In this document: positions 20,975 to 41,124 of the stretch, one piece after another
How positions within the stretch are numbered: the first letter of the stretch is position 1
Layout: each line of letters opens with the position of its first letter
IMG/VR virus record: IMGVR_UViG_3300022555_000004
Reading direction: 5' to 3' (one strand)
DNA: 64,000 bases
Source of the DNA: a virus
Taxonomy: Duplodnaviria; Caudoviricetes
Notes under the pieces: model-generated
The model's input: only the letters and a program-made list of their open reading frames with translations
What the model was told of the DNA's origin: nothing
Databases searched by the model: none
Position numbers and translations under genes: made by a program

Positions 20975-21185
20975 CTATTTCGTTGCCTGCTTATATAATC
21001 TAATAATCGAAACTCCTACACATAATAGTAACCAACCAATCATGAACATAGGCGATGTTCCAAACCAACTATCCATCTTCAATCCAACAAAGGTGAATAA
21101 CATTGTGCTTAATACCATTATAAACGACCAAGCACTCAACGAATATACTTTCTGCATTATGTTTCTTTGTGTGTTATTCATAATA
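20975..21185 (-). CDS. AtpZ/AtpI-family (ATPase_gene1-like) membrane protein; start uncertain
   Basis: MVLSTMLFTFVGLKMDSWFGTSPMFMIGWLLL pattern. Confidence 0.65.
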
Positions 21186-22028
21186 TCCTCCGATATTTTT
21201 ATGTACTTCACACATTTTCTTTTTTGTTTCTTCGTTATGTTTTTTACCATACATACCATTTTTACACCCTCTACAGGATTCACTAATCTTTCTTTTTGTT
21301 TCTTCTGTATGTGTTCTTCCTTTCATAATCTCACTATGATGTTTTCTTTGTTCTTCTGATATTATCTTTCCTTTATGTCTATCACTCATTTTCTTTTTTG
21401 ATTCGGTTGTATGTTTACGACCCTTACCAGACTTACTCATTTTCTGCTTTGTTTCTTCTGATACTTCTATACCTTTATGTGACTCACTCATTTTCTGCTT
21501 TGTTTCTTCTGAAGCAAAATGTTTTCCTTTATTGGATTCGCTTATTTTCTGTCGTGATTTTTCTGATAGTATCCGTTCTTTTGCGTATATACTAGCCGCT
21601 TGTTTTATCCTTAGTTTTATCTCATCCGTTCTATTTTTATACGCCTCTCTCATTTTTTGTTTTGCATCATCTGTATGACATATACCAGCCATTCCTCCAC
21701 TAATTGTGTCAACAAAATTACATAGAGGGCCTGTATTATTGTTTTGTCTACCAACAGCTCGGTTTATTTTTCCTTCTAAAACAAATGCATCATATTCATT
21801 TAAATGTTCTGTATGAAAAATAATTAAAGGCGTGCCTATCTCTTTTATTTTATTACTGAAATCTTTATTATAACATCTTTTCAAATGACTATGCGCCCGT
21901 CCATTACACCCTTTACCTACATAGAATGGTTCATAACCAAACTCATATTCACCATACACATAGTTACCAGGCTTACGTGGATCAAGATATACATAGACAT
22001 AAAAAATATTTTCTTCTGGGTTACACAT
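21174..22028 (-). CDS. GIY-YIG homing endonuclease with NUMOD3 repeats
   Basis: YVYVYLDP...FYVGKG; repeated SEETKQKMS. Confidence 0.85.
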   Translation of the reverse strand: MCNPEENIFYVYVYLDPRKPGNYVYGEYEFGYEPFYVGKGCNGRAHSHLKRCYNKDFSNKIKEIGTPLIIFHTEHLNEYDAFVLEGKINRAVGRQNNNTGPLCNFVDTISGGMAGICHTDDAKQKMREAYKNRTDEIKLRIKQAASIYAKERILSEKSRQKISESNKGKHFASEETKQKMSESHKGIEVSEETKQKMSKSGKGRKHTTESKKKMSDRHKGKIISEEQRKHHSEIMKGRTHTEETKRKISESCRGCKNGMYGKKHNEETKKKMCEVHKNIGGYYE

Positions 22029-22040
22029 AGATTACCTCAC

Positions 22041-22128
22041 TATAAATAGAATTGGAAGGGACAGCGGATACCTCACGCCGTTGCTTGTGTGGTCTCAACA
22101 CCAAGCTTACCTTCTATATCTATTTATA
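22041..22128 (-). ncRNA. Conserved structured leader, copy 1
   Basis: GAAGG-TAA-[hairpin]-AA-[hairpin]-TC-CCTTC, flanked by TATAAATA / TATTTATA. Confidence 0.7.
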
Positions 22129-22163
22129 AAATTGTATAATATGGTAAATCTAAAAACTTAATA

Positions 22164-22439
22164 TTAAGCAGAAACAAGAGTTTTGATGGCATCAATAACT
22201 GGATTAGTAAACAAAGATACCAATAAGGTATAAAGAGCAAATGTTCCAATAGCTTCACTTGTAAATATTCTTTTATACTTGTTCTTTAATCCTACAATAA
22301 CTAAACCACCCACCATCAAACATCCAAGTTGAAAATAAGGAAATGCTTCGATTGGTGCTGCTGTTGCCTGTGCAATTGCAAATGTGCCTGTCATCAATAC
22401 TACTGCCGCTGTCGTCAATAATGTCGTTAATTTTTTCAT
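22164..22439 (-). CDS. Host-type small membrane protein (precursor with signal-like N-terminus)
   Basis: FPYFQLGCLMVGGLVIVGLKNKY...LFTNPVI. Confidence 0.6.
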   Translation of the reverse strand: MKKLTTLLTTAAVVLMTGTFAIAQATAAPIEAFPYFQLGCLMVGGLVIVGLKNKYKRIFTSEAIGTFALYTLLVSLFTNPVIDAIKTLVSA

Positions 22440-22553
22440 ATCATTTCTCCTAAACTAAAGTATTTTTGTCACAATCATGCCTTATTAAGTAGAAATATCT
22501 ATACCAAAGTGACCTGTTTTTGAAAATATATTTTAAACTGACTGAATAAAGAC

Positions 22554-22582
22554 TTGACAAAAATAATAAGATAAGATATAAT
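22554..22582 (+). promoter_or_regulatory. Sigma70 promoter
   Basis: TTGACA-17nt-TATAAT. Confidence 0.75.
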
Positions 22583-22678
22583 GTTTACAAATGAAAAATT
22601 GAACATTATATCAAATGGTATTGAACGAAATGATTTAATGAAGTTACATACTTAACTAATGATTGAACGAGGTGATAA

Positions 22679-23209
22679 ATGAATGAAAATATATATTATG
22701 TCTATGTTTTTTTAGACCAAATGAAAGAAGGTATTTATAATTATGGTGGTGAATATATGTTCAACTATGAACCGTTTTATGTTGGTAAAGGAAAAAATGG
22801 TCGATATTCATCACATCTAAAAGGCAAATCACACAATAAAGAATTAAGAGCGAGAATAGATTATATAAAAGAAACAACAAAAACAGAACCAACTATTATG
22901 AAACTCTATTATCATTTGAGTAATTCTGATGCCATAATTGAAGAACGGCGAGCGATCAATATTATTGGAACCAAAACCAGTAAACGAATCAAAGGGCCAT
23001 TAGTCAATAAAGATTTTTCTAATGTATATGACAATTCTATACCTAATATAGACAAAGAAACTTACATTTTGGATCACCCTTATATTTCATCACAACAAGT
23101 ATTTATTGGTATATACAATTTTCTTGCTTTCTGTAAACGAAAACATTTGAATAGTCAATCGTTAATTGACGGTAAAATAATTGATGGATGGTCTTTAACT
23201 ATTGTATAA
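22679..23209 (+). CDS. GIY-YIG-type endonuclease (no NUMOD3 repeats)
   Basis: YYVYVFLD...EPFYVGKG; homologous to 21174..22028. Confidence 0.75.
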   Translation: MNENIYYVYVFLDQMKEGIYNYGGEYMFNYEPFYVGKGKNGRYSSHLKGKSHNKELRARIDYIKETTKTEPTIMKLYYHLSNSDAIIEERRAINIIGTKTSKRIKGPLVNKDFSNVYDNSIPNIDKETYILDHPYISSQQVFIGIYNFLAFCKRKHLNSQSLIDGKIIDGWSLTIV

Positions 23210-23210
23210 T

Positions 23211-23239
23211 AAAAAAGGGAGGCTCTATGGCCTCCCTTC
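23211..23239 (-). terminator. Rho-independent terminator after gp32
   Basis: GGGAGGC/GCCTCCC hairpin plus U-run. Confidence 0.75.
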
Positions 23240-23259
23240 AAAACTATTTTAATTCCGTA

Positions 23260-24231
23260 TTAACGCATGGCTCTAAGCTCGGCCATCAAATCTGCTTCAT
23301 CCAAATCACCTGTTTCAACGGCTTCTGCTTCCAATGTGGTTGCTGGTACTTCTTCACCTAATTCAGCGGGCACATCATCAACAACTTTTGATGCCTTAAT
23401 AGGAGCGCCGTTGTGTTTCTGCCATTCTACTTCAACCATATCCCACAACATTTCGTTTTTCAACATCTTGATTGTATCGTCTTTTGACATTTCAAGGCTT
23501 GTAAGATATTCATCAATAGAATATGTTGAACCCATAATTTCCTTAATCCTTGCATCATTGTCAGCCAATGGTGAAGATTTGCGTGAGAAAATAGAATCCG
23601 AATAATCAGGATATGTATTTCCCTTTGCATCTGGTTTGGTTGATTTGATTTTGATTATGATATTATGTCCATCTGCGCCTGGGTCAAATATGGCATAGCC
23701 TAATCCTTCCTTCTTATCCAAAACCTCATTCTTTAACTTAGATTCTAGTTTAGAAGGAAATTCATATAACTTCGTTTTACCTGATGCCTTCTTTGTTTCA
23801 TCATCTTGGTCTTTATCTCTTGGGTCATCAACAACATAAAAATTGCCGACATGACGTTCTTTCCTCTTTCTGGCAAAAGCAACCTTCTTGTCATCTGCTG
23901 TACCTGTATATAGTGAACTTACAACGGAACATACCGGACAAAAACATTCCATTCCATGTGTTTTAGGGCACATAAAGAATATCCACCGATCTCCAGATTT
24001 CCACATATGATAGAAATACTTGCGCGTGAAACATCCCTTCTGATCAGGAATAAATCTTCCTTCATATACTTTTGCTTTTTCAGCAGTTCCTGCTTGTGGT
24101 GATTGCCATACGAAATCTTGCCGCCTTATTGGGTTTTTTACTTCACTAATTTCCTTTTGTTTTTCGCCAACATAATTGTCGAAAAGTTTAGCATTGATCC
24201 ATTTTGATTGCCCCATTTCTATTACCTCCAT
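23260..24231 (-). CDS. Single-stranded DNA-binding protein (T4 gp32-like)
   Basis: NFYVVDDP, YEF..KL, IFDP..G, YPDYSDS, acidic tail. Confidence 0.8.
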   Translation of the reverse strand: MEVIEMGQSKWINAKLFDNYVGEKQKEISEVKNPIRRQDFVWQSPQAGTAEKAKVYEGRFIPDQKGCFTRKYFYHMWKSGDRWIFFMCPKTHGMECFCPVCSVVSSLYTGTADDKKVAFARKRKERHVGNFYVVDDPRDKDQDDETKKASGKTKLYEFPSKLESKLKNEVLDKKEGLGYAIFDPGADGHNIIIKIKSTKPDAKGNTYPDYSDSIFSRKSSPLADNDARIKEIMGSTYSIDEYLTSLEMSKDDTIKMLKNEMLWDMVEVEWQKHNGAPIKASKVVDDVPAELGEEVPATTLEAEAVETGDLDEADLMAELRAMR

Positions 24232-24308
24232 TCAATTTGCTTAGTTATTGCCTTAAGCGGCATTATTTTACCCTTGTGGGTATATTTTAATTAGTGTAAC
24301 ATTATTCA

Positions 24309-24560
24309 TTAGTATTGTAAACTATTTTTTATCCAATATTGAATTGTAGCTGTTGGAATAGACATCATATCTGATATTTGTTTTTGTGTTTTACCATTTA
24401 TTTTTAGTGATATGGCCTCTAAAATGATAGCATTAGAATATTTTTGATTCTTTCCTTTACCAGACTTGCTTATGTTTCTTTTGTGTTCTTCGGATTTATG
24501 TCTGCCTTTAGCTGATTTACTAATATTCTTCTTATGTTCTTCTGAAAATATTTTTTCCAT
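24309..24560 (-). CDS. NUMOD3 plus HTH mini-protein lacking a nuclease domain
   Basis: SEEHKKNISKS x2, then TQKQISDMMSIPTATIQYW. Confidence 0.6.
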   Translation of the reverse strand: MEKIFSEEHKKNISKSAKGRHKSEEHKRNISKSGKGKNQKYSNAIILEAISLKINGKTQKQISDMMSIPTATIQYWIKNSLQY

Positions 24561-24561
24561 T

Positions 24562-24831
24562 TCATATTAGATCCTTTATTTTATAAATTAGTTTCCAAAA
24601 CCATACTCGAAATTGTCTAATTGGGTGACCCTTTAAATAACGAGTATGTAGTATTTTAACAGCGTCTGTTTCTTTCATTCGTCTCATTCCTCCACAATAT
24701 TCTGGACTAGCACAATGAGATAATCCGATACTTCTACAATCTGGACAATATAGTCCAGATGGATTATCTGAAATTGGAGCATTTTTTGCTGGTTTCTTTT
24801 CCAGATATTCAAATGGTTTCATTTTGTTCAA
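24562..24831 (-). CDS. Hypothetical Cys-containing protein
   Basis: CPDC...HC...C. Confidence 0.5.
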   Translation of the reverse strand: MNKMKPFEYLEKKPAKNAPISDNPSGLYCPDCRSIGLSHCASPEYCGGMRRMKETDAVKILHTRYLKGHPIRQFRVWFWKLIYKIKDLI

Positions 24832-25051
24832 TTTGCTTATATTTTTCGATTTCCTCTATTAATATACTTGTTACAGAATATTGTATCAATTTTGTAATAT
24901 CATTCTCACTCAATGGTAAAGTATATTGTACCTCATTTGGTTCAAGTTGTAAACGACTCATTGCATATGTTAATAATTTTTCTATATCTAGTTCTGCCAA
25001 ATCAACGTCACAAACGAAATTCCCATCTGTATCTTCAATTCTTATAATCAT
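24809..25051 (-). CDS. Hypothetical protein
   Basis: ORF in operon. Confidence 0.55.
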   Translation of the reverse strand: MIIRIEDTDGNFVCDVDLAELDIEKLLTYAMSRLQLEPNEVQYTLPLSENDITKLIQYSVTSILIEEIEKYKQIEQNETI

Positions 25052-25223
25052 CTTTTCCTATTCCTATTCCTTCTTTTAATTTTTCAAGTTCATCGGCAAA
25101 TACAGCCCGAAATGCCATCAATGCCACTCGTCTACGTCTATCGTATTCGGATTCAGATTCAAATACTTCTAAACATTCATCTTTCAATTCATTAGTTGGC
25201 AATGATGTCATATTGGTTCCCAA
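25035..25223 (-). CDS. Hypothetical protein
   Basis: ORF in operon. Confidence 0.5.
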   Translation of the reverse strand: MGTNMTSLPTNELKDECLEVFESESEYDRRRRVALMAFRAVFADELEKLKEGIGIGKDDYKN

Positions 25224-25402
25224 TTTTTCTTATTACTTTCTATTTCTTGAAGTATCATATCATCACGAACGCTTTTCATATAAACTAAAGAAGATGTTGA
25301 CCATCCATCATAACAATCTAACCAATACCATAAAATCTTCCTTTGAATTTTATATTGTCCTGAAACTTTATTTTTAACAATTCTAAGTTTATTCATAACC
25401 AT
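25208..25402 (-). CDS. Hypothetical protein
   Basis: ORF in operon. Confidence 0.5.
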   Translation of the reverse strand: MVMNKLRIVKNKVSGQYKIQRKILWYWLDCYDGWSTSSLVYMKSVRDDMILQEIESNKKNWEPI

Positions 25403-25414
25403 TATTACCTTTTC

Positions 25415-26335
25415 TTATACATTACCACATGTTATAAAATCTGTAAACGTTTTTCTTTCAGTAAATCCAGCAGCATTTTTATGACCACCACCGCCATATT
25501 TTACGGCAATCCTTGATACATCAATCTTAACACTTCGTAATTGATTTATCTTTAATATTCCACCTGTTACTTCATCTAATTTGTGATAAAATATCCAAGC
25601 CAGGTCGTAATTACGTTCTTTATATATAATATGCCCTAATTGTGATGCCGACCTCAAATGTGTTGAATTAATCATTAAACATGAATACATTTTATCTTCC
25701 CACATAATAGGCAACGGAAATCCAATTTCATCAATCATCTGATTCAATTCCCTATATTTTATATCCTTTGCATCTTTACCTAATTTGAATAATGGTTTAA
25801 ATTCATCATCAGGTAATGACAACAAATAATCCCATATATTCCCTTTAATATCAGATAAATCTATACTTTGTGTGTATTCATAGAAATGTAATGTATTATC
25901 ACCATATCTCATTACCCATCTATCATAATCATCAACTAATGCTACAACACATGGAATACTCTTTTTTGGTTTGATAACATTATATGCATCAGGATGAAAA
26001 TATAACCAAGTCAACATAGCTCCAGAATAATCAATAGACCTCATTCCTTTCAAATCACTAAATTCTGTTAATCCTTCTATGACAGATTTGTGATGGTCAA
26101 TATGCACCACGTTCTCTCGTCCAACAATATCAATCAATTCATTAAACTTATCTCGTTTTAATGAATAATCTAAGATATAAACTTTATCCATATCTTTTGT
26201 AAATGTTGGTTGTTTCAAATTATAATCTGTTTCAATACATATGATTTCATCATATCTATTCTTCAATTCTCTATATGCTACAGCGGCCGCACACCTGCCA
26301 TCCAAATCATTGTGTGCACAGATGACTATTGACAA
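25415..26335 (-). CDS. DHH/DHHA1 phosphoesterase
   Basis: HNDLDG, IDHH, GGGGHKNAAGF. Confidence 0.9.
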   Translation of the reverse strand: MSIVICAHNDLDGRCAAAVAYRELKNRYDEIICIETDYNLKQPTFTKDMDKVYILDYSLKRDKFNELIDIVGRENVVHIDHHKSVIEGLTEFSDLKGMRSIDYSGAMLTWLYFHPDAYNVIKPKKSIPCVVALVDDYDRWVMRYGDNTLHFYEYTQSIDLSDIKGNIWDYLLSLPDDEFKPLFKLGKDAKDIKYRELNQMIDEIGFPLPIMWEDKMYSCLMINSTHLRSASQLGHIIYKERNYDLAWIFYHKLDEVTGGILKINQLRSVKIDVSRIAVKYGGGGHKNAAGFTERKTFTDFITCGNV

Positions 26336-26337
26336 TT

Positions 26338-26544
26338 TTAAATATCCTCACTTTCATTTATAATTTTTGATGCTCGTTTTCTTGCTTCAATCATTGCTCT
26401 TGGATGCCTATAAATGTCACGAAATTTCTCAACCATCATATCAATTGTTGTATGTTCGCCTTTATAATCAGTGTCATCAACAGTTATAGTATTTTTAGCA
26501 ATAATTTTATATCTTGATTCATTCATTGGGCTTGTATCTTTCAT
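26338..26544 (-). CDS. Hypothetical protein
   Basis: ORF in operon. Confidence 0.5.
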   Translation of the reverse strand: MKDTSPMNESRYKIIAKNTITVDDTDYKGEHTTIDMMVEKFRDIYRHPRAMIEARKRASKIINESEDI

Positions 26545-26546
26545 GA

Positions 26547-26882
26547 TTATAAATACTCCTTAAATGCTTGCCACCAACTCATTTCATATTCTTTATGCCT
26601 ATATATAATTCGTTCCATTGTTCTCAAATTAGATTCAATCCATATCTTTATACCATAACCAATACAACATAATAATATAGCTCCAGAAATACTTGTAAAT
26701 ATTAATAACATAATTTCAAGCATAACAATCAGTTTTATCAACATAACAATCAGTTCTATCAACATAGCCAATCCAACAACAATACCGATCCAAAGACCAA
26801 TCAATAAACACCATTTGATAATTTCATACAACTTCAATAACACAAACACAATTATTTTTTCTATCATTTTATTCACCAACAC
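26547..26882 (-). CDS. Membrane protein
   Basis: Long hydrophobic stretch. Confidence 0.55.
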   Translation of the reverse strand: MLVNKMIEKIIVFVLLKLYEIIKWCLLIGLWIGIVVGLAMLIELIVMLIKLIVMLEIMLLIFTSISGAILLCCIGYGIKIWIESNLRTMERIIYRHKEYEMSWWQAFKEYL

Positions 26883-27236
26883 TTTCGTCTTTAATCATTT
26901 TATATCCCTTTGCAATACTATTCCTGATACCAATTTCTAAATATCTGTCCTTATTTTCAATTATGACATATTGTAATATCTGTTCAAGATTCGTGAACCA
27001 TTGACTATCAGGCACAGTTTGTAAAAAATTAATCTCCATATTATTATCTCCTATTATTTTTTAATCATCATCTGGTAATATTCTTTCCATCATCTCTGTT
27101 AATTCATCATCCTTATATCTTTTCTTGATTTCATCACTTACTTCTTTATCATATAACATCTGTTGTCCTGCTGATAAACCGGGCGTTTTCGTATTCAATA
27201 ACTTGCCCTTCTTTTTAGTAATCATTCATTATCCTC

Positions 27237-27446
27237 CTAAACTTCATCGTGACATCTTTGTTCACATACACTACAACAATTACAAACAGTTGGATCATCA
27301 CCAAATACATCAAACAATGGGCATATATGTGGATTCTGACCAATTCTAATCTTACAACTCTGACACAGCATATCCTCTGATACTATATCTTTAAAATGGG
27401 GCATCTTCTTCTTCATATTCTTCCTCATATTTTTCATCATGTTCAT
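27237..27446 (-). CDS. Small Cys-rich protein
   Basis: CQSC, HICP, CNCC. Confidence 0.5.
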   Translation of the reverse strand: MNMMKNMRKNMKKKMPHFKDIVSEDMLCQSCKIRIGQNPHICPLFDVFGDDPTVCNCCSVCEQRCHDEV

Positions 27447-27702
27447 TCTTCCATGTTTCTTCGTGTTTTTCTACATATTTGTTATCAACCATATTTATGC
27501 CTTTGATTAGGCCACCTGTCAATGGGCATACACTTGGAAATGTAAAATCAACATTATGATACTTATTTGCCCTAATATTAAGACAAGGATTTATGCAACA
27601 ATATGGACTATAATCTGTTGACCGTTCATGATAATGACAAAATGGACAATCATTACAACCACTTATCTTGATAATGCCTTCTTCAAATACAATTCTATTC
27701 AT
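27391..27702 (-). CDS. Cys-rich protein with acidic DAPF tail
   Basis: CNDCPFC; C-terminus EEEDAPF. Confidence 0.55.
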   Translation of the reverse strand: MNRIVFEEGIIKISGCNDCPFCHYHERSTDYSPYCCINPCLNIRANKYHNVDFTFPSVCPLTGGLIKGINMVDNKYVEKHEETWKNEHDEKYEEEYEEEDAPF

Positions 27703-27716
27703 ATCAATTCCTTTTC

Positions 27717-28328
27717 TTATAATTTACTACTAAATATATTATTCACAACTCTATTGATTTCTTCCGATAATGTCCAATAATTCTTCATCACTAATGGAAT
27801 CAACGCTCGTTCATAATCCTCTAATATTAAAAACTTCTGACTAATTAAAAATGCTAATGTGTGTTTATCAATTCTATTCAATAAGAAATGTTTGATTGGC
27901 GCCTTCATACCATCTTCATTCATTCTACAATATTGTGAATATATATTCAAATCACTACGAAATTCATGTTTATCCATCCATTCCTTAATGTAATATATAC
28001 TATTATTGTAACATTCTAATACATTCCCATTTGTTCTCTTTAATTGCTTATCCTTCTCAATATATGATAACAATATCCGTCTATCATAAAATTTTGAATA
28101 TGAAAATGCCTTACCATGTAACTCAAAACCATAATCAAAATATCTATCCATGTCGATATTTTGCCATCGCGTGTTGAAGGCAATCGTGATTAGCTCTAAT
28201 TGTTTCACATTCTCTTTGGTCATTTTAGACCATACACTATCCCAATTCTTGGGTATACGAAATCCACGCCCTAAATATCTTGATTGTGCCCCACGAAATG
28301 ACAAATATGTATCTTGAATTTCAATCAT
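27717..28328 (-). CDS. Hypothetical protein (possibly helicase-loader-like)
   Basis: 203-aa ORF; function not established. Confidence 0.55.
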   Translation of the reverse strand: MIEIQDTYLSFRGAQSRYLGRGFRIPKNWDSVWSKMTKENVKQLELITIAFNTRWQNIDMDRYFDYGFELHGKAFSYSKFYDRRILLSYIEKDKQLKRTNGNVLECYNNSIYYIKEWMDKHEFRSDLNIYSQYCRMNEDGMKAPIKHFLLNRIDKHTLAFLISQKFLILEDYERALIPLVMKNYWTLSEEINRVVNNIFSSKL

Positions 28329-28329
28329 G

Positions 28330-28560
28330 TTATTTTTTCCTTATAATTAATGATACCATCTTATACAAACCCAATGACATAAGATATAATGTCCCTAATA
28401 TCCCTATGACCGGCCAAAATATACCATATCCTACAGCAAATAATAAATGAAGATTAAATTCTTCAAATGTCAATTTACCATTATGATTACTAATAAAACG
28501 TATAAATGATGCCACACCAACAACAAACAATCCAATAAAATATATTAATTCATAATTCAT
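28330..28560 (-). CDS. Small membrane protein (FWP motif family)
   Basis: GIFWPV. Confidence 0.55.
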   Translation of the reverse strand: MNYELIYFIGLFVVGVASFIRFISNHNGKLTFEEFNLHLLFAVGYGIFWPVIGILGTLYLMSLGLYKMVSLIIRKK

Positions 28561-28793
28561 TTAATCTTCCCTTTCAAATATATCTTATATGCTAAGGCCA
28601 ATATCAATTGACCAATCCACATACCAATTGTAATAGGCCAAAATAATCCCATCACAAAACTAACACCTAAATATAAACAAAAATATCCAAATGAAACAAC
28701 ACCAACAACATTATCATGTTTGAGTAAATATCTAAATGTACCACCCCAAACAAGTATCCATACAACTATATGAAAAATCATCCATAATTCCAT
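28557..28793 (-). CDS. Small membrane protein (FWP motif family)
   Basis: GLFWPI. Confidence 0.55.
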   Translation of the reverse strand: MELWMIFHIVVWILVWGGTFRYLLKHDNVVGVVSFGYFCLYLGVSFVMGLFWPITIGMWIGQLILALAYKIYLKGKIK

Positions 28794-28796
28794 ATC

Positions 28797-29060
28797 CTAT
28801 TTGCCTCTCTTATCAAGAACTAATTTCGTATATAATACCATCATTACTTTACGTAAAAGTAATATAACAATAACAATTGGCCAAAATATACCACCCCAAC
28901 TACTCAGGGCAAACCAAATACAAAAATCAGAGAAATCAATATAATCCAAATATACATTTTGTGATTTAACCCAATAAATAAATGTCCCAAACCAAAATAC
29001 AATCCCTATAATAATATAACTAATCCAAAATTCTAACATTTTATATAACCTCACTTTCAA
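28797..29060 (-). CDS. Small membrane protein (FWP motif family)
   Basis: GIFWPI. Confidence 0.55.
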   Translation of the reverse strand: MKVRLYKMLEFWISYIIIGIVFWFGTFIYWVKSQNVYLDYIDFSDFCIWFALSSWGGIFWPIVIVILLLRKVMMVLYTKLVLDKRGK

Positions 29061-29094
29061 ATAATACTATATCATATTATTTCAAATTCGGCAA

Positions 29095-30222
29095 TCACTT
29101 TATTCCCTTGCCGAATAAGGATAAATACGAACTCACATATGCCTTTAAATTCTTATAGCCATTATCTTCCCAAAACAATTGATCATGAACCTTACCATAA
29201 TCATTTTCAAAGGTAGCCACACGATAATCAATATCATTTGCCAATGATTCAATATGATTTATAATCCCATCTTCATCATTACTAATACATGACATATCCT
29301 TATATGGTTCAATATCACTATATACGCCGGGACAACCAATAACAGTATATTCTAAACATTTGATATTCGACTTACTCTCATTAAATATGCCAGGTGATAA
29401 CAAAGCCACACATATATCTAAATCTAATGATTTTAAATGTGCTGGATAATCAAATATGCTCTTCCATCCATGAAATTCAATTTTATCTTTTATATCCTCT
29501 AATTCAACAGGACAAGCCCCACTAAATACCCAACAATATTTGTCAACTGTTTTCTTAATAAAATTCAATATCTTATCACCAAAATCACCACCACGAATAC
29601 CATTTTTATATTCAGCCGAATTAATATTACAAAAATGATTCTCCGATCCAGCCCATCCAATTCGCGGTCGCTCACTAATAGAACGATGATGCCTATCTAT
29701 TCTAACATCACCCCAAATAAATTTAGGTAAATGATTAGGTATAACTACAATATTATTACAATATGCACTATATATCTCTTTTAATTTATTAGTGCTAACA
29801 GTCATACCATCAACTATCTCCATCATTTTATATATCGCCCCATTATTACTATTGTAAAATGATGATGCATAATTCCATGCAGGTATGTCCTGTAATAAAT
29901 CATCAATCTCATATATGATCGGAACCTTCACTAACTTCCTTATGTTCCTTATGTAATGCTGAAATATCCGTAAATGCTGATCTGTTGCTGAACGCTGAAA
30001 TTGAACAAATGTATATGATTTATAAAAATTAGGGTCATTTATAAAACTTGTGGTGTAATCTGCCTCAAATGCATAACCATTATCCTTATCACGATATAAA
30101 TTCAATAATAACGATGGATACATAATTCGTATATGAGCGCAACCTTGACGATCTCCCATATATGACATAAATCTAAATTTCGCAGGCCCATTTATAATAC
30201 TCAATTCTTTATCATTCACCAT
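29095..30222 (-). CDS. GT-B fold glycosyltransferase
   Basis: YEIDD, IGWAGS..H, NESKSNIKCLEY. Confidence 0.8.
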   Translation of the reverse strand: MVNDKELSIINGPAKFRFMSYMGDRQGCAHIRIMYPSLLLNLYRDKDNGYAFEADYTTSFINDPNFYKSYTFVQFQRSATDQHLRIFQHYIRNIRKLVKVPIIYEIDDLLQDIPAWNYASSFYNSNNGAIYKMMEIVDGMTVSTNKLKEIYSAYCNNIVVIPNHLPKFIWGDVRIDRHHRSISERPRIGWAGSENHFCNINSAEYKNGIRGGDFGDKILNFIKKTVDKYCWVFSGACPVELEDIKDKIEFHGWKSIFDYPAHLKSLDLDICVALLSPGIFNESKSNIKCLEYTVIGCPGVYSDIEPYKDMSCISNDEDGIINHIESLANDIDYRVATFENDYGKVHDQLFWEDNGYKNLKAYVSSYLSLFGKGIK

Positions 30223-30345
30223 TTATATCCTACCCTCTATTCTATATATTTTTGGTTCATTATTCGTTATGTTCGTATCATCTATCCCAATGCCACATAT
30301 CTCACATATATTCCTCTTTTTATCCAATATGTTCACTAAATCCTT

Positions 30346-30690
30346 CTAATCAACTATATCATATTTCGGTGGATTAATATTCGGATTAGGTTCGTTATCC
30401 TTGTGTCGTTCATTCTCTGGTTTATCTAAATCTAACCACATCATAGTGCCATGTGGTATGTCACGAATATCATCATGATTTGTACAATCCTGTATTCCAA
30501 TCAAATTCGCACCACTATCACCATCAATAAATTTATGTAAAATATATTTCTTATCCTTATGATCAATAACTATGCCTTCATCAACACGAAACATACAATA
30601 TAACGCCTTTACAAAAATGTTGAATCCTAATCTGTCCTCTGGATGCTCTAAATGGTCTGCCGGTACTAATATCTCATTCTCATTTATCAT
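30346..30690 (-). CDS. Hypothetical protein
   Basis: ORF with RBS. Confidence 0.55.
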   Translation of the reverse strand: MINENEILVPADHLEHPEDRLGFNIFVKALYCMFRVDEGIVIDHKDKKYILHKFIDGDSGANLIGIQDCTNHDDIRDIPHGTMMWLDLDKPENERHKDNEPNPNINPPKYDIVD

Positions 30691-30803
30691 ATATCTAAAT
30701 CCTCCTATAATTTTTCCTATTATGCCAGTATATAATTTTATATCTAATCTAACCTAGGACTGGCCTTGGATAATGAACCAATAATAATCCACAATAATCC
30801 ATT

Positions 30804-31526
30804 TTACTCTACCCTTTTTGCTTTATCAGGCTTCAAAACTTTTTCAACGGTCATACCCTTGTATTTCTTGCCATGCTGCAGTGCCCATAAAATACTCGAC
30901 TTGGCAAACTCTTTGTGTGTTTTACAAAACCCATTCAGGCTATCATTCTCGATTGTAATCACTTCACCATCAGGTTTCGTGAGGATGTAGTTCCATAACG
31001 CCCTATTGTTCTTAATTCCCATCTTGCTCTGTCGTTCTTTCTCTCTGGTTGCGGGATTGTCCATAGGATTCCATACTTCCATTCTTTTCTTGGCATGTTC
31101 TATCTTTGAGAGATTGCCTGTCAATTTTTTACTGATTTTTGCCTTAATTTCGTCAGATTTTTCTTTGCCATGGATTTCTTCTAATGTTCTGTGGTCGCCG
31201 TATCTGCCGGCATTTTCACCTGCCATATCCTCATTGATAACAAGATTATATCCCATTTCATCTGATTTGTATTCGCCGATGTAATATTTTAATAATTCTT
31301 TTGCCTCGTCCACATCCTGACATTCATCCAGTATTTCCCATTTGAAATATTGTGTGCCTAAGTGTTTGATTATTCTATGGATTTCATCTTTTGGATTTTC
31401 TAATTGGGAATGATACAAGTGGAAGTGTAATCTTTGTTTTAGTGGCATATGGGTCATTTCTATATAGACAGATGGGATGTCACGATTTGCCGTCATCATA
31501 TTGGTTGCCATGAGGATAATATACAT
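30804..31526 (-). CDS. Divergent GIY-YIG-derived protein
   Basis: YIIL.ATN...VYIEMT (altered motif), FKWEILDEC, GYNL, C-terminal DNA-binding module. Confidence 0.6.
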   Translation of the reverse strand: MYIILMATNMMTANRDIPSVYIEMTHMPLKQRLHFHLYHSQLENPKDEIHRIIKHLGTQYFKWEILDECQDVDEAKELLKYYIGEYKSDEMGYNLVINEDMAGENAGRYGDHRTLEEIHGKEKSDEIKAKISKKLTGNLSKIEHAKKRMEVWNPMDNPATREKERQSKMGIKNNRALWNYILTKPDGEVITIENDSLNGFCKTHKEFAKSSILWALQHGKKYKGMTVEKVLKPDKAKRVE

Positions 31527-31529
31527 AGA

Positions 31530-32200
31530 TGTTATAAGTCCTTGTTATGATTGGTATTAATACTGCTTGACTTTTTTACAATAATATGATATAATGAAGC
31601 ATGGAGTGTATATAATATAAGGGTTAACATTATGACCACATTTGATTTAGTATAACACATTATATAAAATATGTCAAGTTATTTATTTTATCTGCGGTCG
31701 AAAATAACGACCGCAAAATAAATAGATTGCCTTATATGACGTTTTGTGATATAATAGGAATGATATATATAATATTAATATTGGATTTTACGCATGCCGC
31801 TCTAAGGATATTATATCACATTATGGAAAATAAGGCAAGCGTTATTTTCATACTGGCAAAAGATAATGCTTGATTTCTCGATGATAATGTGATATAATGG
31901 GAGTGATGCGTAACTCGCCGAGGGTCTAATAATATCAAGTAGTTAGACAGAAACAATCATAATATCTACTTATATAAAATAGTAGTTTTTGTATTCCAAA
32001 ATGAAACAGAAAAACTAAGATATGACTTTTTATTAGAACAAAATTTAAGAAATCATGAAAACCAGACTATGCCTACATAAGAATGTATCATGTCCATATC
32101 AGGGACATGATATAAAAACGTGTCCAAATTATATCAAAATATGGACACGATAATAAAGCTTGACTTTTATTGAAAAAGGGTATATACTATAAGGGTATTT
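31530..32200. other. AT-rich non-coding region with clustered promoter-like motifs and hairpins; candidate replication origin
   Basis: No long ORF; repeated TTGA/C...GATATAAT on both strands; inverted repeats near 31681..31724 and 32085..32152. Confidence 0.5.
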
Positions 32201-32220
32201 TGGGAGGGTGGGATCAGCAA

Positions 32221-32434
32221 AACACATTTTCGTGATGCTATGCCACCGGAGCAAAAAGCGAACACATTTTCGTGATGCTATGCCACCGGGCGCAAAAAGC
32301 GAACACATTTTCGTGATGCTATGCCACCGGGCGCAAAAAGCGAACACATTTTCGTGATGCTATGCCACCGGGCGCAAAAAGCGAACACATTTTCGTGATG
32401 CTATGCCACCGGGCGCAAAAAGCGAACACATTTT
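32221..32434. repeat. 41-bp tandem repeat, five copies plus a partial sixth
   Basis: AACACATTTTCGTGATGCTATGCCACCGGGCGCAAAAAGCG starting at 32221, 32261, 32302, 32343, 32384, 32425. Confidence 0.95.
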
Positions 32435-32464
32435 TTAGCCGAACATATATGCGGACAAAATGTC

Positions 32465-32989
32465 CTATATCTTGATATTATTGAAATTGATGATTTCACC
32501 ATTACTGATGATGCACTCAATATATCGTCTGGCGGTTTCCTCGCCTCTATCTCTCAATAGGCGAGATACGTGTAATGGTAATTCTATCATATAGCCAGAC
32601 CCACAATTAGTCATATTCACCGAATGTTCTTTGAAGATTTTATCAACCAAATCGTATGCTTCTTTTGATGGATATGAATACCCACTATGTTCTCTCAATA
32701 TGCGTTTATTACAGATTTTACACTTACTGACCGTGTATTGTGATCCACTAAATTCATCTGTTTCGACCTTATAGGTTATGGTTGGTTCAAAGACATGAAT
32801 ACAATCAATATGCTTACACTTTTTACAATATCTAATGCCACCGTAGCCGGTGCCCCCATTCAGGGTTGAAATGTTCTTGTGCCGGTGATTCAAAATCAAT
32901 CGAATAGAACGACCCTTTTTCATTACACTTACTTGTCCAACATAATGACGCATTGATGTAATCATGCTTGAAGCAAAATTTTCTATCAT
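32465..32989 (-). CDS. Hypothetical protein with Cys motifs (true start probably downstream)
   Basis: YCKKCKHIDC, CKIC. Confidence 0.5.
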   Translation of the reverse strand: MIENFASSMITSMRHYVGQVSVMKKGRSIRLILNHRHKNISTLNGGTGYGGIRYCKKCKHIDCIHVFEPTITYKVETDEFSGSQYTVSKCKICNKRILREHSGYSYPSKEAYDLVDKIFKEHSVNMTNCGSGYMIELPLHVSRLLRDRGEETARRYIECIISNGEIINFNNIKI

Positions 32990-33062
32990 TGATGTTCATT
33001 AGCAATGCTTTCGATTTTTCATCATAGTAGTTTTTGATACTATCGGTTATTTTGATTTCCAT
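32832..33062 (-). CDS. Hypothetical protein
   Basis: GGAG RBS plus ATG. Confidence 0.55.
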   Translation of the reverse strand: MEIKITDSIKNYYDEKSKALLMNINDRKFCFKHDYINASLCWTSKCNEKGSFYSIDFESPAQEHFNPEWGHRLRWH

Positions 33063-33074
33063 AAATTCTCCAAT

Positions 33075-33660
33075 TTTTAGATTTTGATGCTCGCCGCCCG
33101 GAGCTCAAATGTCACTTTTATAAAATTTCAGTTGGTAAGGATTCCTTACATACTGACCAAGACGCAATAGCCATAGGGTGCCTAGGCGGGTTATGTAAAA
33201 GAGGGTATTACAGAGGGGATCGAGACCCTCATTTCCCCACAAATATGATGAGCAGGGATCTTCTATTAGATGATCCTGATATTCACATTCATTAGATATA
33301 AGAAAAAAGAGGAACGTATGTAAGGTCGCGGCCCGTGTATCCAACCTTCGGCTAATCTGGGCAGGGCTTACTTCATATCCCTCTTTTTGTATTTTCTACT
33401 TGTGTGAACACCCAAGGGCTCTAACACAAGTAATGTTTGGTTTGGTCAATGGAGTCGAACCATACCTTATACGTCACAGTATTCAAATCTTGCCCGATCG
33501 AGAGAAAATTTGATACCCTTGCAAGTTGTATAAGTCGCCGGATACCACATGTTTCATTATACGGTGGGTGTTTACACCACTTAGTGTTATTTCTTAACAA
33601 ACCGTATTTCGTGTAGGTGATAAGGGGTATCAAATTTAACCACTTGATTTGTTGATGTTC
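33075..33660 (-). ncRNA. Candidate large structured non-coding RNA
   Basis: Follows a sigma70 promoter; multiple long inverted repeats; GC-richer than flanks. Confidence 0.5.
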
Positions 33661-33678
33661 CCCTCACTCATTAAATAC

Positions 33679-33707
33679 ATTATACCTCATTTTATTCATT
33701 TTGTCAA
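33679..33707 (-). promoter_or_regulatory. Sigma70 promoter
   Basis: TTGACA-17nt-TATAAT. Confidence 0.8.
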
Positions 33708-34019
33708 GAAGTATTTTACGCAATAAAAAAGAGTGCCTTCTGACCAGCACTCTTTTCTACTCAACGAATAAATTTATCTTTTATTTTGAAGATGGTCGGT
33801 GTATTAATTATACGACTATGGGGGTGCTATATGTATTGACGAGATACCATTCACCCACTTATAGGTTGGATTACGTCATTTACCAACAGCACCGACACCA
33901 CTTCATTTGAACGAAAGAAACAATGAGGATGTAACCCCATATTGTCGGCTTGTAGGCCGCAGTTTTCCATCTTAAACTACATTTCCTTCATCCGTATCCA
34001 AACTGTTTTGTATATTAAT

Positions 34020-36195: not shown

Positions 36196-36257
36196 TTGTT
36201 ATACCTCTTGTTATTTTAATATTCTTATTTATGTCTTTACAATAGCTTTATGTTTTT

Positions 36258-36342
36258 CTAAATAATAGAAGGTAATCCAGATGTGTGGACATACTGGAAA
36301 CAGCGGAGCGAACAGCTGCTGTCCCTTCTCATTCTATTTATA
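36258..36342 (+). ncRNA. Conserved structured leader, copy 2
   Basis: GAAGG TAA TCCAG...CTGGA AA CAGC...GCTG TC CCTTC...TATTTATA. Confidence 0.7.
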
Positions 36343-36356
36343 AGGAGCGACTGTCT

Positions 36357-37053
36357 ATGTCAAACAAAATTTTTGGTGTAATCTATAAAGCAACTAATCT
36401 TATTAATGGTAAATGTTATATTGGACAAACAATACGATTTAAAAAACGAAAATATGACCATATATTCTGGTCTATAAATGAACTAGATAATTTCTATTTT
36501 CATAATTCCATAAGAAAGCACGGCGTTGGTAATTTCAGTTGGGAAATTATTTATGAATGTGATGATAAATTGTTACTAAATGTAATGGAAACATTTAAAA
36601 TTATGACACATCATAGCCATGTTAGTGAAGGCAAAGGATATAATCTAACTTGGGGCGGTGATGTTATATATGGCAGACCTTGTTCAGAAGAAACTAAGGA
36701 AAAAATAAGGCAAACACAATTAGGTAAACATATTACTGATGAAACACGAATAAAAAATGTGTATTGCTCAACAAAACAGGCCCACAATATCAGAAGAAAC
36801 AAGAATAAAGAAGAAAACGTTTCGTCATTCAATTGACACTAAAACAAAAATGCGTGAAAATACAATAGGTTCTCTTAATGGGTTTTATGGTAAAAAACAC
36901 ACAGATGAAACTAAAGCAAAATGGAAAAATAGACCTGTTTGGAATAAGGGCATACCAAGATCAGAAGAAACAAAACAAAAAATACGTGAAACTAAGTTAC
37001 GAAACAAACGTTTTAACCTTCAATGTACTCTGGATGAACAAGTTGTTTTATAA
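36357..37053 (+). pseudogene. GIY-YIG/NUMOD3 homing endonuclease with a +1 frameshift in an A6 run (36752..36757)
   Basis: VIYKATNLINGKCYIG; NUMOD3 repeats continue in the second frame. Confidence 0.75.
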
Positions 37054-40063: not shown

Positions 40064-40303
40064 TTATAATTCAAACAATTTATCATCTAATGATATCACA
40101 AAAGGAAAAACCTCTACGAATGGATTGTCATCTGGCTTATATGTTACCATACTTAGACGGCCTTTTGTGTCACTTATTTTTACCTGACCATAGCCAAATT
40201 TATCATCTTTTATTATTATAAAATATGTCAATGATTTGAAATATTGACACTCTGGACAATTACAATCCATACAATCTTCTTTAAATTTATAATATCGTTC
40301 CAT
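40064..40303 (-). CDS. Small protein, LDDELFEL-tail family
   Basis: Ends ISLDDKLFEL; CNCPEC like 39543..39767. Confidence 0.65.
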   Translation of the reverse strand: MERYYKFKEDCMDCNCPECQYFKSLTYFIIIKDDKFGYGQVKISDTKGRLSMVTYKPDDNPFVEVFPFVISLDDKLFEL

Positions 40304-41019
40304 TATTTTATCATTTCCATCAATGTATCAAAGTCAATAATGGTTACGCGCGACCTTTTCATTGATTCACTTATTTTTCTTTTATGTTCATCTGACATAG
40401 GGCCTCTTTTCATTCCTGTTCTACTTTTACTCATTTTTTCCTTTGTTTCTTTGGTCATTGGATGTTTATTTTTTGCTGATATTGACATTTTTTCTCTGGT
40501 TGTCAACGAAAATGTTTTATTGATAGCCGATTTACTCATTTTCTTTTTTGTTTCATCTGATTTTTTTCTGCCTAAAAGTGATATACTTATTTTTTTTCTT
40601 ACGTCCGATGGTATAGTTTTTCCAAACATGTAACTCAATTCACCAGTATATTTTCCTATCATTGATAATGACCGTTTTTCAATAATTTCTTTTGAAAATT
40701 TATATCCTTTAGGTATGCCATCTCCACCCCATGTAAGATTATACCCACCTTCTGTCCAATGAGAATGGTTTACAATAATTTTCATGGTTTCCATGACACC
40801 TAAAACTAAGGCATCATCACATTCATATAATATTTCCCATTTGAAATTACCAAGACCATACTTTTTAATAGCACGATGAAAATATGTATTGCTTTTACTT
40901 TCAACACTATCTTTATGCCCTTGTCTTCTTTTATGTAATGATTGTGTTGTTTTGCCAACATAACATTTACCGTTGATTAAATTTGTTGATTTATAAATAA
41001 TACACAATTGTTCTGACAT
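40303..41019 (-). CDS. GIY-YIG/NUMOD3 homing endonuclease (start MSEQLC)
   Basis: IIYKSTNLINGKCYVG, FKWEILYEC, GGYNLTWGG, NUMOD3 repeats. Confidence 0.88.
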   Translation of the reverse strand: MSEQLCIIYKSTNLINGKCYVGKTTQSLHKRRQGHKDSVESKSNTYFHRAIKKYGLGNFKWEILYECDDALVLGVMETMKIIVNHSHWTEGGYNLTWGGDGIPKGYKFSKEIIEKRSLSMIGKYTGELSYMFGKTIPSDVRKKISISLLGRKKSDETKKKMSKSAINKTFSLTTREKMSISAKNKHPMTKETKEKMSKSRTGMKRGPMSDEHKRKISESMKRSRVTIIDFDTLMEMIK

Positions 41020-41033
41020 AAGATATACCTCAC

Positions 41034-41121
41034 TATAAATAAGATGTGGAAGGGACAGCAGCAAACCTCACGCTGTTTTCGGTGTGTTGACGCACCCGAA
41101 TTACCTTCTACATGTATTTAG
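41034..41121 (-). ncRNA. Conserved structured leader, copy 3
   Basis: GAAGG TAA TTCG...CGAA AA CAGC...GCTG TC CCTTC...TATTTATA. Confidence 0.7.
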
Positions 41122-41124
41122 AGA

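What the first reader, a model, noticed from the sequence alone, without database searches (positions are those of the whole stretch)
22041..22128. Conserved three-way-junction RNA leader on GIY-YIG homing endonuclease genes (copy 1 of 3)
Seen: the same architecture sits before 21174..22028, 36357.. and 40303..41019: (T/C)TAAATA, N3-6, GAAGG, TAA, P2 hairpin, AA, C(A/G)GCG...(C/T)GCTG, TC, CCTTC, N6-7, TATTTATA, RBS, ATG. P2 differs in sequence but pairs in every copy (GCTT/AAGC, TCCAG/CTGGA, TTCG/CGAA), which is true covariation. G-U pairs favour the mRNA-sense fold. TATTTATA is also a perfect antisense T4 late promoter in all three copies. The other GIY-YIG genes (22679, 49281) lack the element. 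Inference: a cis-regulatory or nuclease-associated RNA that travels with this endonuclease subfamily.
Basis: partly seen in the sequence, partly recalled or inferred. Interest (0 to 1): 0.8.

Follow-up and report, generated by a model that had tools for sequence, protein, structure and literature searches.

The report
Structured leader on phage endonuclease genes
A roughly 90-base cassette that folds into a three-armed RNA sits in front of selfish nuclease genes in many uncultured T4-like phages; two late-promoter boxes facing each other frame it and one loop copies the gene's own ribosome-binding site, which points to an undescribed, possibly antisense-based brake on these genes.

Summary
The window holds exactly three copies (22041-22128 minus, 36257-36342 plus, 41034-41122 minus), and about 90 further distinct copies occur in viral and metagenome contigs. 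Rfam has no match, INPHARED phages have none, and I found no paper describing it. The three-way junction shows strong covariation: 94% of cells are paired against 75% in shuffles, and 344 double changes occur against 107 expected. The element precedes GIY-YIG, HNH, CapR-like and one TnpB-like gene, so it is not tied to one GIY-YIG subfamily. (1) The upstream (T/C)TAAATA box is the sense T4-type late promoter, placed so that the mRNA starts at helix P1. (2) TATTTAT lies at mirror spacing; its variants match those of the sense box and do not compensate them. (3) The P3 loop is identical, not complementary, to each gene's own SD and spacer (7.8 nt against 4.8 nt in cross pairs; 0 of 5000 permutations), with at least 30 variants. 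I found no complementary partner in cis. My best reading, at about 40%, is a portable two-promoter governor. A late antisense RNA would carry the complement of the loop and pair with the ribosome-binding site, as in the par locus of pAD1 or IS10 RNA-OUT. No transcript data exist, so the mechanism remains inferred.

The parts
22121..22128 (-). Copy 1: sense late-promoter box TATAAATA, 6 nt upstream of P1
22055..22114 (-). Copy 1: three-way-junction core. P1 22110-22114 pairs with 22055-22059; J1/2 UAA; P2 22083-22106; J2/3 AA; P3 22065-22080; J3/1 CUGUC 22060-22064
   Evidence: 68.2 bits, E 6e-16
22069..22076 (-). Copy 1: P3-loop copy of the ribosome-binding region (GTGAGGTA)
22041..22048 (+). 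Copy 1: inverted box (TATTTATA on the gene strand, TATAAATA on the + strand), 6 nt from P1'
22026..22040 (-). Copy 1: real SD and spacer (GTGAGGTA at 22033-22040) and ATG (22026-22028)
21174..22028 (-). Copy 1: GIY-YIG/NUMOD3 homing-endonuclease gene (284 aa)
36257..36264 (+). Copy 2: sense box TCTAAATA, 3 nt upstream of P1
36268..36328 (+). Copy 2: three-way-junction core. P1 36268-36272 pairs with 36324-36328; P2 36276-36298; P3 36301-36318; CUGUC 36319-36323
   Evidence: 65.7 bits, E 3e-15
36305..36311 (+). Copy 2: P3-loop copy of the ribosome-binding region (GGAGCGA)
36335..36342 (-). Copy 2: inverted box (TATAAATA on the minus strand). It points toward the amidoligase-like gene 34879-36195
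36343..36359 (+). Copy 2: real SD and spacer (GGAGCGA 36344-36350, then CTGTC as in J3/1) and ATG 36357-36359
36357..36836 (+). Copy 2: short GIY-YIG-like gene (159 aa). The N-terminal motif is seen by eye; there is no Pfam hit
41115..41122 (-). Copy 3: sense box TCTAAATA, 6 nt upstream of P1
41049..41108 (-). Copy 3: three-way-junction core. P1 41104-41108 pairs with 41049-41053; P2 41078-41100; P3 41059-41075; CUGUC 41054-41058
   Evidence: 69.8 bits, E 2e-16
41065..41071 (-). Copy 3: P3-loop copy of the ribosome-binding region (GTGAGGT)
41034..41041 (+). Copy 3: inverted box (TATAAATA on the + strand), 7 nt from P1'
41017..41033 (-). Copy 3: real SD and spacer (GTGAGGT 41027-41033) and ATG 41017-41019
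40303..41019 (-). Copy 3: GIY-YIG-like/NUMOD3 homing-endonuclease gene (238 aa)

Best explanation
The element is a portable regulatory cassette of about 110 bp that supplies the promoter, leader and ribosome-binding site of free-standing homing-endonuclease genes in T4-like phages. Shown: a T4-type late-promoter box lies 5-6 nt before helix P1, so the late mRNA should begin flush with a conserved, covarying three-way junction of about 63 nt. A second late-promoter box lies on the opposite strand at mirror spacing, 5-7 nt beyond P1'. The P3 loop repeats the gene's own SD plus spacer, which lies just beyond that second box. Inferred: late in infection both boxes fire. The antisense transcript starts at P1' and folds into the mirror junction, which is possible because the helices are almost purely Watson-Crick. 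It then presents in its P3' loop the exact complement of the gene's ribosome-binding site. It pairs with the endonuclease mRNA at that site and also along the leader. Together with head-on transcription, this keeps translation of the selfish nuclease low. In this reading the copy of the ribosome-binding site inside the antisense gene is what aims the brake. That would explain why loop and ribosome-binding site change together. The logic matches DNA direct repeats read in opposite directions in the par locus of pAD1.
For: The family is real and structured. Searches give about 90 distinct copies. One search gives 94% of cells paired against 75% in shuffles and about 44% in slid controls, 344 double-change cells against 107, and a covariation score of 0.576 against 0.219 (0 of 500 shuffles). 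P1 switches between GAAGG/CCTTC and GAGAG/CTCTC, with TAAGG/CCTTA in copies found without bias. Sense box: TATAAATA in 64 of 84 copies, with a 5-6 nt spacer to P1 in 67 of 84; three copies found by the model alone also have it. In the window TATAAATA is biased toward the coding strand, 18 to 4. Inverted box: present in 73 of 84 copies at 5-7 nt from P1'. Its variants (CATAAATA, TCTAAATA, GATAAATA, AATAAATA on the antisense strand) are the same kinds seen in sense boxes. They never compensate sense-box variants, and the adjacent spacer positions show no covariation. Loop and ribosome-binding site: the longest common substring averages 7.8 nt within a copy against 4.8 nt in cross pairs (n=83, 0 of 5000 permutations). 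There are at least 30 variants, and six variants occur with both P1 types although P1' lies between the two copies. No cis complement exists in 300 nt upstream, 900 nt downstream or the P2 loop, so the opposite strand is the only source of a partner found here. The predicted duplex of antisense P3 with the ribosome-binding site is -14.2 kcal/mol within a copy against -7.9 in cross pairs. Helices: 1351 WC, 19 G-U, 8 A-C. The antisense folds of the three window copies score at least as well as the sense folds (z -5.0, -2.5, -3.8 against -3.5, -1.7, -1.9). Internal loop-versus-site mismatches lean toward those an antisense RNA would tolerate as G-U (6 against 2; weak). Precedents: par of pAD1 (PMC7472228) and the antisense RNA CfrI over a homing-endonuclease gene in a T4-like cyanophage (PMC2984593). 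T4 late promoters need only the -10-like box (PMC7892883).
Against: There is no transcript evidence of any kind, so neither the sense nor the antisense start is shown. The loop-to-site identity persists in several divergent copies that lack a recognisable inverted box (L148, L152, L164, L167, and the second copies in L170 and L167). In 28 copies the inverted box reads CATAAATA, a variant of unknown strength. The conserved unpaired residues are A-rich on the gene strand (UAA, AA, bulged A, frequent G-A at the inner P3 pair). That is more typical of a folded sense RNA than of its U-rich mirror. No terminator for an antisense RNA was found. An antisense RNA would already be fully complementary to the leader, so the extra loop match is needed only to reach the ribosome-binding site. 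The transition asymmetry rests on 8 events.
Confidence: 0.4

Rival explanations
1. Sense-only leader. The three-way junction sits at the 5' end of the late mRNA, where it would protect the transcript. Its P3 loop would display a copy of the ribosome-binding site that acts in cis as a 30S standby or loading site, or as a decoy that lowers initiation. The TATTTAT stretch would be only an A/U-rich enhancer.
For: The sense-box spacing puts the predicted 5' end flush with P1. The conserved A-rich junctions and the bulged A lie on the gene strand. The identity persists in copies without an inverted box. The leader raises the predicted opening cost of the ribosome-binding site only slightly, 5.3 against 4.4 kcal/mol.
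Against: A ribosome reads the SD core, not the 3-7 variable bases behind it, so a standby site or decoy does not explain exact co-variation in at least 30 variants. It also does not explain the precise conservation and fixed spacing of TATTTAT, nor the near absence of G-U pairs.
Confidence: 0.25
2. I-TevI-type timing switch. On read-through early or middle transcripts the promoter box pairs with its inverted copy (helix P0), stacked on P1. This would dampen translation or create an RNase III site. Late transcripts start inside P0 and escape.
For: The inverted boxes pair in the minimum-energy folds of copies 1 and 3. Late promoters placed inside inhibitory hairpins are the known rule for I-TevI, I-TevII, I-TevIII, segB and mobE, and seg43(25) has a hairpin just upstream of its RBS (PMC2988022). 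The opening cost of the ribosome-binding site is higher on read-through RNA (6.2 against 5.3 kcal/mol, p about 0.01).
Against: The SD lies outside the helix and the predicted effect is under 1 kcal/mol. Box variants on the two sides never compensate (15 mismatching cases, 0 compensated), and the adjacent spacers do not covary. This reading explains neither the conserved junction nor the loop copy.
Confidence: 0.15
3. DNA-level element. A shared recombination or mobility cassette in the manner of PeSLs, or a set of protein-binding repeats or palindromes, with the RNA fold incidental.
For: The helices are Watson-Crick only. Many genomes carry several copies (L147, L154, L182, L143, L167, L170, L264, this window). 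The same leader precedes unrelated nuclease families. Repeated promoter cassettes that mediate shuffling are known in T4-like phages (PMC2839356, PMC4122927).
Against: Compensatory change in 5-bp and 3-bp arms with a conserved bulge and invariant single-stranded junctions is what RNA folding predicts. It is not what homology-driven recombination predicts, since that needs sequence identity rather than pairing. Repeat variants are shared across nuclease families, so they are not operators of the encoded protein. No deletion derivatives between the direct repeats were found.
Confidence: 0.1
4. A small catalytic or ligand- or protein-binding RNA (a new self-cleaving ribozyme or aptamer) that processes or gates the endonuclease mRNA.
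For: A compact three-way junction with invariant junction nucleotides (UAA, AA, CUGUC) and a conserved bulged A. A distant gut-metagenome variant keeps the core without the loop copy and without a gene directly downstream (L138, L149, L179).
Against: There is no match to any Rfam ribozyme or riboswitch, even at E up to 10. The junction does not carry the hammerhead core. This reading does not explain the loop copy or the inverted box.
Confidence: 0.05

Closest known systems
Late-promoter/hairpin translational control of T4-family homing endonucleases (I-TevI, I-TevII, I-TevIII, segB, mobE of Aeh1; seg43(25) of Aeromonas phage 25). PMC2988022
   Same: A late promoter lies directly upstream of a homing-endonuclease gene, with a conserved RNA structure between promoter and RBS. 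In seg43(25) the hairpin ends just before an unsequestered RBS, as here.
   Different: The known cases are simple hairpins whose 5' arm lies upstream of the late start and which bury the RBS. Here the main structure is a three-way junction downstream of the predicted start. The RBS is not buried, an inverted second promoter box is conserved, and a loop copies the RBS.
par locus of pAD1 (fst RNA I / RNA II), a type I toxin-antitoxin system. PMC7472228
   Same: Convergent promoters and DNA direct repeats read in opposite directions, so the regulator is complementary to the translation initiation site of a harmful gene that it does not overlap there. The repeats vary between loci and so give specificity.
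   Different: par has a shared bidirectional terminator, and the target is a small membrane peptide in bacteria or plasmids. Here no terminator was found, the promoters are phage late promoters, the target is a nuclease, and antisense transcription is not shown.
IS10/Tn10 RNA-IN / RNA-OUT antisense control of transposase (from my own knowledge, not checked here)
   Same: A mobile-element nuclease or transposase gene is held down by a structured antisense RNA made from a promoter inside its own leader region, and the RNA pairs with the ribosome-binding region.
   Different: RNA-OUT overlaps the ribosome-binding site directly. Here the inverted box lies upstream of the site, and the match is supplied by a separate copy in a loop.
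CfrI antisense RNA of cyanophage S-PM2 (Millard et al. 2010, as cited in PMC2984593)
   Same: An antisense RNA associated with a homing-endonuclease gene in a T4-like phage.
   Different: CfrI is about 225 nt and overlaps the endonuclease gene and psbA. It has no three-way junction, no copy of the ribosome-binding site and no sequence relation to this element.
PeSL cassettes (promoter-early stem-loop) of T4-like phages. PMC2839356, PMC4122927
   Same: Short repeated promoter-plus-structure cassettes in intergenic regions of T4-like genomes that move between unrelated genes.
   Different: PeSLs combine a terminator hairpin with an early promoter. This element has late-promoter boxes and a covarying three-way junction, and it is specific to nuclease genes.

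Membership tests
Any Rfam 15 family | Score at or above the family's gathering threshold | tested here: not met
   One search found only tRNAs in the window. One search (E up to 10 on 21950-22250) gave only a chance mir-1 hit of 14 bits.
I-TevI-type RBS-sequestering hairpin | Late promoter immediately upstream of the endonuclease ORF | tested here: met
   The box TATAAATA or NCTAAATA lies 5-6 nt before P1 in 67 of 84 copies. Promoter activity is inferred from sequence only.
I-TevI-type RBS-sequestering hairpin | The inhibitory structure needs sequence upstream of the late start, so late transcripts cannot form it | tested here: not met
   The conserved junction lies wholly downstream of the predicted start. 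Only the 8-bp box-to-box pairing would be lost, and it shows no covariation.
I-TevI-type RBS-sequestering hairpin | The SD and start codon are buried in the helix | tested here: not met
   The SD starts after the last paired base. The opening cost is 5.3 (late), 6.2 (read-through) and 4.4 (no leader) kcal/mol.
par-like type I antisense control | Convergent promoters flanking the regulator | tested here: inconclusive
   Two facing late-promoter boxes are present in 73 of 84 copies. No transcript data could be obtained.
par-like type I antisense control | DNA direct repeats, one at the target's translation initiation site, read in opposite directions | tested here: met
   The loop copy and the ribosome-binding site are identical over 7-12 nt and lie on either side of the inverted box.
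par-like type I antisense control | Shared bidirectional intrinsic terminator and a small toxic peptide | tested here: not met
   No terminator-like site lies next to the three copies. The downstream genes are nucleases of 160-390 aa.
PeSL cassette | Early (sigma-70-type) promoter joined to a terminator stem-loop | tested here: not met
   The boxes are late type, and the structure is a branched junction without a U tract at its base.
Hammerhead or other known self-cleaving ribozymes | Conserved catalytic core in the junction | tested here: not met
   The junctions are UAA, AA and CUGUC, and no Rfam ribozyme model matches. Catalysis itself cannot be tested with these tools.
CsrA-type dual GGA sites (hairpin-loop GGA plus SD GGA) | A GGA motif in both sites | tested here: not met
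   Many variants have no GGA (for example the GAGGTGA type, which is the commonest, and ACAGATT, CACGTTA, ACACAAA). The co-varying bases lie outside the GGA.

The most novel reading that the evidence does not exclude
Selfish nuclease genes of T4-like phages carry a self-contained governor that can be re-aimed. Two facing late promoters would transcribe a small three-way junction in both directions. One loop stores a copy of the gene's ribosome-binding site, so that the antisense RNA is aimed at whatever gene the cassette is joined to. This would be a new class of phage regulatory RNA, and a natural design in which a loop copy sets the target.
Probability: 0.35. Interest if true: 0.8.

Novelty: new variant of a known kind. 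Interest (0 to 1): 0.68.

Why it matters
Homing endonucleases are the main selfish elements of large phages, and how they are kept harmless to their carrier is known for only a few T4 examples. This element is a widespread, strongly covarying and uncatalogued RNA/DNA module shared by several nuclease families. Its internal rule, that one loop must equal the gene's own ribosome-binding site, is rare and directly testable. If the antisense reading holds, it extends type-I-toxin-like and IS10-like control to phage late transcription. It would also give a compact natural part for tuning the expression of toxic genes. Even if that reading fails, the family deserves a covariance-model entry in RNA databases, and the loop-copy rule still needs an explanation.

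Tried and rejected
- A common cis partner (anti-SD) for the loop copy and the ribosome-binding site: the reverse complement is not enriched in 300 nt upstream or 900 nt downstream, and there is no P2-loop to P3-loop complementarity.
- Translation from the conserved CUG of J3/1: its frame relative to the ATG is 33/21/19, and 10 of the 33 in-frame cases contain stops. A CUG aligned with the ATG at the same SD spacing was not consistent either.
- A GTC before the ATG as a second shared block: found in only 26 of 73 copies. It is not general to the phage's other genes, so I did not build on it.
- Deletion between the two direct repeats as a genetic switch: a 5'-half-only pattern in IMG/VR returned only complete elements.
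- Covariation in the spacers next to the two boxes: none.
- RNA evidence: no RNA holder was listed for the window. DNA contigs of four lake runs laid on 21900-41200 showed no strain variants inside the loop copies or ribosome-binding sites. They showed only pieces of paralogous cassettes and one low-depth 1-nt deletion at 36314.
- Cultured phages: megablast and blastn of copy 1 and two consensus-like members against INPHARED gave only chance hits of 20-30 nt.
- My first, loose pattern scan of IMG/VR returned only chance matches.
- The terminator scan gave nothing next to the copies.
- The gut-metagenome variant (L149): its loop does not match the neighbouring gene's ribosome-binding site in either sense.

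Full report
**1. The observation**

On the strand of the downstream gene all three sites read in the same order: late-type box, 3-6 nt, GAAGG, TAA, hairpin P2, AA, hairpin P3, CTGTC, CCTTC, 6-7 nt, TATTTATA, SD, ATG.
- A pattern for the two P1 arms hits three times in the window against none in 100 shuffles.
- Rfam has no match at gathering thresholds, or at E up to 10 around copy 1.
- The coordinates 22041-22128 run exactly from the inverted box to the upstream box of copy 1.

**2. A large family**

Patterns taken from the conserved 3' half and from the whole core retrieved true relatives from IMG/VR, JGI/ENA metagenomes and binned genomes.
- After removing duplicates and chance matches, 84 copies had the full architecture.
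- An alignment of 81 cores (A3) supports three helices. Of all cells, 94.0% are paired, against 75.1% when partners are shuffled and 43-57% when they are slid. There are 344 cells changed on both sides against 107 expected, and the covariation score is 0.576 against 0.219 (0 of 500 shuffles).
- P1 switches as a unit between GAAGG/CCTTC (44) and GAGAG/CTCTC (37).
- P2 is 5 bp plus 3 bp around a conserved bulged A, and every one of its pairs covaries.
- P1 complementarity and minimal P2/P3 pairing were my filters for membership, so P1 covariation is partly by construction. P2 and P3 were not constrained by the search patterns.
- A covariance model (R1) finds only the three known sites in the window, and the next hit has E 1.6. 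It finds 127 hits in the fetched loci.
- Three of those hits had not been found by any pattern. They still carry TATAAATA upstream, a new compensated P1 variant (TAAGG/CCTTA in two of them) and the loop rule described below.
- INPHARED phages have no copy, and I found no paper that describes the motif.

**3. What it precedes**

Of 70 distinct downstream ORFs, 35 have NUMOD3. GIY-YIG-type models hit 19, 16 and 3 members (overlapping). Seven have a CapR-homology domain, five have DUF4379, two have HNH, and one is TnpB-like with Cas12f-TNB and OrfB_IS605 domains. The cassette therefore belongs to mobile-nuclease genes in general, not to one GIY-YIG subfamily.

The window's phage has T4-type replication genes: a gp41-like helicase, a gp32-like SSB, an RNA ligase, a Dda-like helicase and an NAD ligase. 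Earlier notes of this scan also call the genome T4-like.

**4. The two boxes**

The upstream box is TATAAATA in 64 of 84 copies. The rest read N(A/C)TAAATA. The spacer to P1 is 5-6 nt in 67 of 84. T4 late promoters consist only of such a -10-like box (PMC7892883), so the predicted late mRNA starts at or one base before P1.
- In the window TATAAATA is strongly biased toward the coding strand (18 to 4), and several copies lie 25-45 nt before start codons.
- The GIY-YIG gene at 49281-49994 has the same box and the same spacer, joined directly to an SD without the junction.
- The downstream TATTTAT is present in 73 of 84 copies, 5-7 nt after P1'. Read on the other strand it is TATAAATA (36), CATAAATA (28), TCTAAATA (5), GATAAATA (2) or AATAAATA (2).
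- These are the same kinds of variant as in the sense boxes. They never compensate a variant on the other side, and the flanking spacer positions do not covary.
- The inverted box therefore behaves like a second, independently constrained promoter box rather than a pairing partner.
- Of the four plus-strand TATAAATA in the window, two are these boxes. The box of copy 2 is a third box lying opposite to its own gene.

**5. The loop rule**

In nearly every copy the 5' part of the P3 loop, often with the last one or two bases of the stem, is identical to the gene's own SD plus the following 3-7 bases.
- The longest common substring between P3 and its own downstream 45 nt averages 7.8 nt, against 4.8 nt for P3 of one copy and the downstream region of another (n=83; 0 of 5000 permutations).
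- There are at least 30 variants.
- In four SD-less copies the shared block sits at or just after the ATG, so what is copied is the initiation region, not the SD as such.
- Six variants occur with both P1 types although P1' lies between the two copies of the block. Both couplings have therefore been kept through repeated change.
- Identity, as opposed to complementarity, normally means that both segments pair with one and the same third sequence. I found no such sequence on the same strand.

**6. Strand**

The helices are almost purely Watson-Crick: 1351 WC cells, 19 G-U and 8 A-C, with 11 of the G-U cells at the innermost P3 pair. Either strand can therefore fold.
- The antisense folds of the three window copies are at least as good as the sense folds.
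- Against that, the conserved unpaired bases are A-rich on the gene strand.

**7. Mechanism**

- The known T4 scheme, in which the RBS is buried on read-through RNA and freed on late RNA (PMC2988022), is not met. The SD lies outside all helices, and its predicted opening cost differs by only 0.9 kcal/mol between late and read-through RNA.
- The simplest account of the loop rule, the inverted box and the Watson-Crick-only helices together is convergent late transcription. An antisense RNA starting at P1' would fold into the mirror junction and expose the complement of the ribosome-binding site in its P3' loop. The predicted duplex is -14.2 kcal/mol with its own site against -7.9 in cross pairs.
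- This is the logic of par on pAD1, where direct repeats read in opposite directions sequester the toxin's initiation site (PMC7472228). It is also the logic of IS10 RNA-OUT. An antisense RNA over a homing-endonuclease gene is known in one T4-like cyanophage.
- I put this reading at about 0.4. No transcript data exist. Several divergent copies keep the loop rule without a recognisable inverted box. The sense strand also looks like a properly folded RNA.
- The rivals are a sense-only standby site or decoy, box-to-box pairing on read-through RNA, a DNA-level cassette, and a ribozyme or aptamer. They are scored separately. The first two may act alongside the antisense route.

**8. Novelty**

Regulatory structures and late promoters in front of T4 homing-endonuclease genes are known, and so is antisense control of selfish genes. 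This conserved junction family, its mirror-image promoter frame and its loop copy of the ribosome-binding site appear in neither Rfam nor the papers I could search. I rate it a new variant of a known kind. The structure and family are secure. The mechanism is inferred.

Noticed in passing
window 49281-50021 (minus): A third GIY-YIG gene has the same late box and the same 6-nt spacer (TATAAATA gatata) joined directly to GGAG and the ATG. It looks like the cassette without the junction and the inverted box.
   Followed up: partly
window 22554-23209 (plus): The small GIY-YIG-like gene 22679-23209 lies on the opposite strand. It has a perfect sigma-70 promoter (TTGACA, 17 nt, TATAAT) at 22554-22582, so it is wired as an early gene. 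It lies downstream of the inverted box of copy 1.
   Followed up: no
window 42901-42945, 44475-44519, 44980-45024 (minus): Three genes, including the NAD-dependent ligase, share a repeated upstream block (a TATAAT-like hexamer followed by AAGAGAAAAAA). It resembles an early-promoter cassette of the PeSL kind.
   Followed up: no
window 40992-40999 (plus): Copy 3 has a second perfect antisense TATAAATA inside the first codons of its endonuclease gene (the codons of the I-I-Y-K motif). A transcript from it would overlap the ribosome-binding site directly.
   Followed up: no
L147:5106-6284 (plus): One copy of the leader precedes a TnpB-like gene of 365 aa (Cas12f-like TNB domain E 5e-22, OrfB_IS605). 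A second copy on the same contig precedes a GIY-YIG gene.
   Followed up: partly
L149:5157-5210 (minus); also L138, L179: A distant gut-metagenome variant (35-36 bits) keeps the junction core and the upstream box but has no loop copy of a ribosome-binding site. It lies in an intergenic gap in the opposite orientation to both flanking genes, so there the junction RNA would itself be the antisense transcript of the next gene's leader.
   Followed up: partly
window 22004 joined to 41042 in lake-metagenome contigs: Contigs from three lake runs join an endonuclease 5' end like that of copy 1 to a junction like that of copy 3, through a ribosome-binding site of the GAGGTGAA type. This indicates at least one more paralogous cassette in the same population. 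An earlier scan note reports two further copies upstream of this window.
   Followed up: no
window 4230-4302 and 48850-62438 (minus): Sixteen tRNA genes, most in clusters at 48.8-52.3 kb and 55.3-56.2 kb.
   Followed up: no
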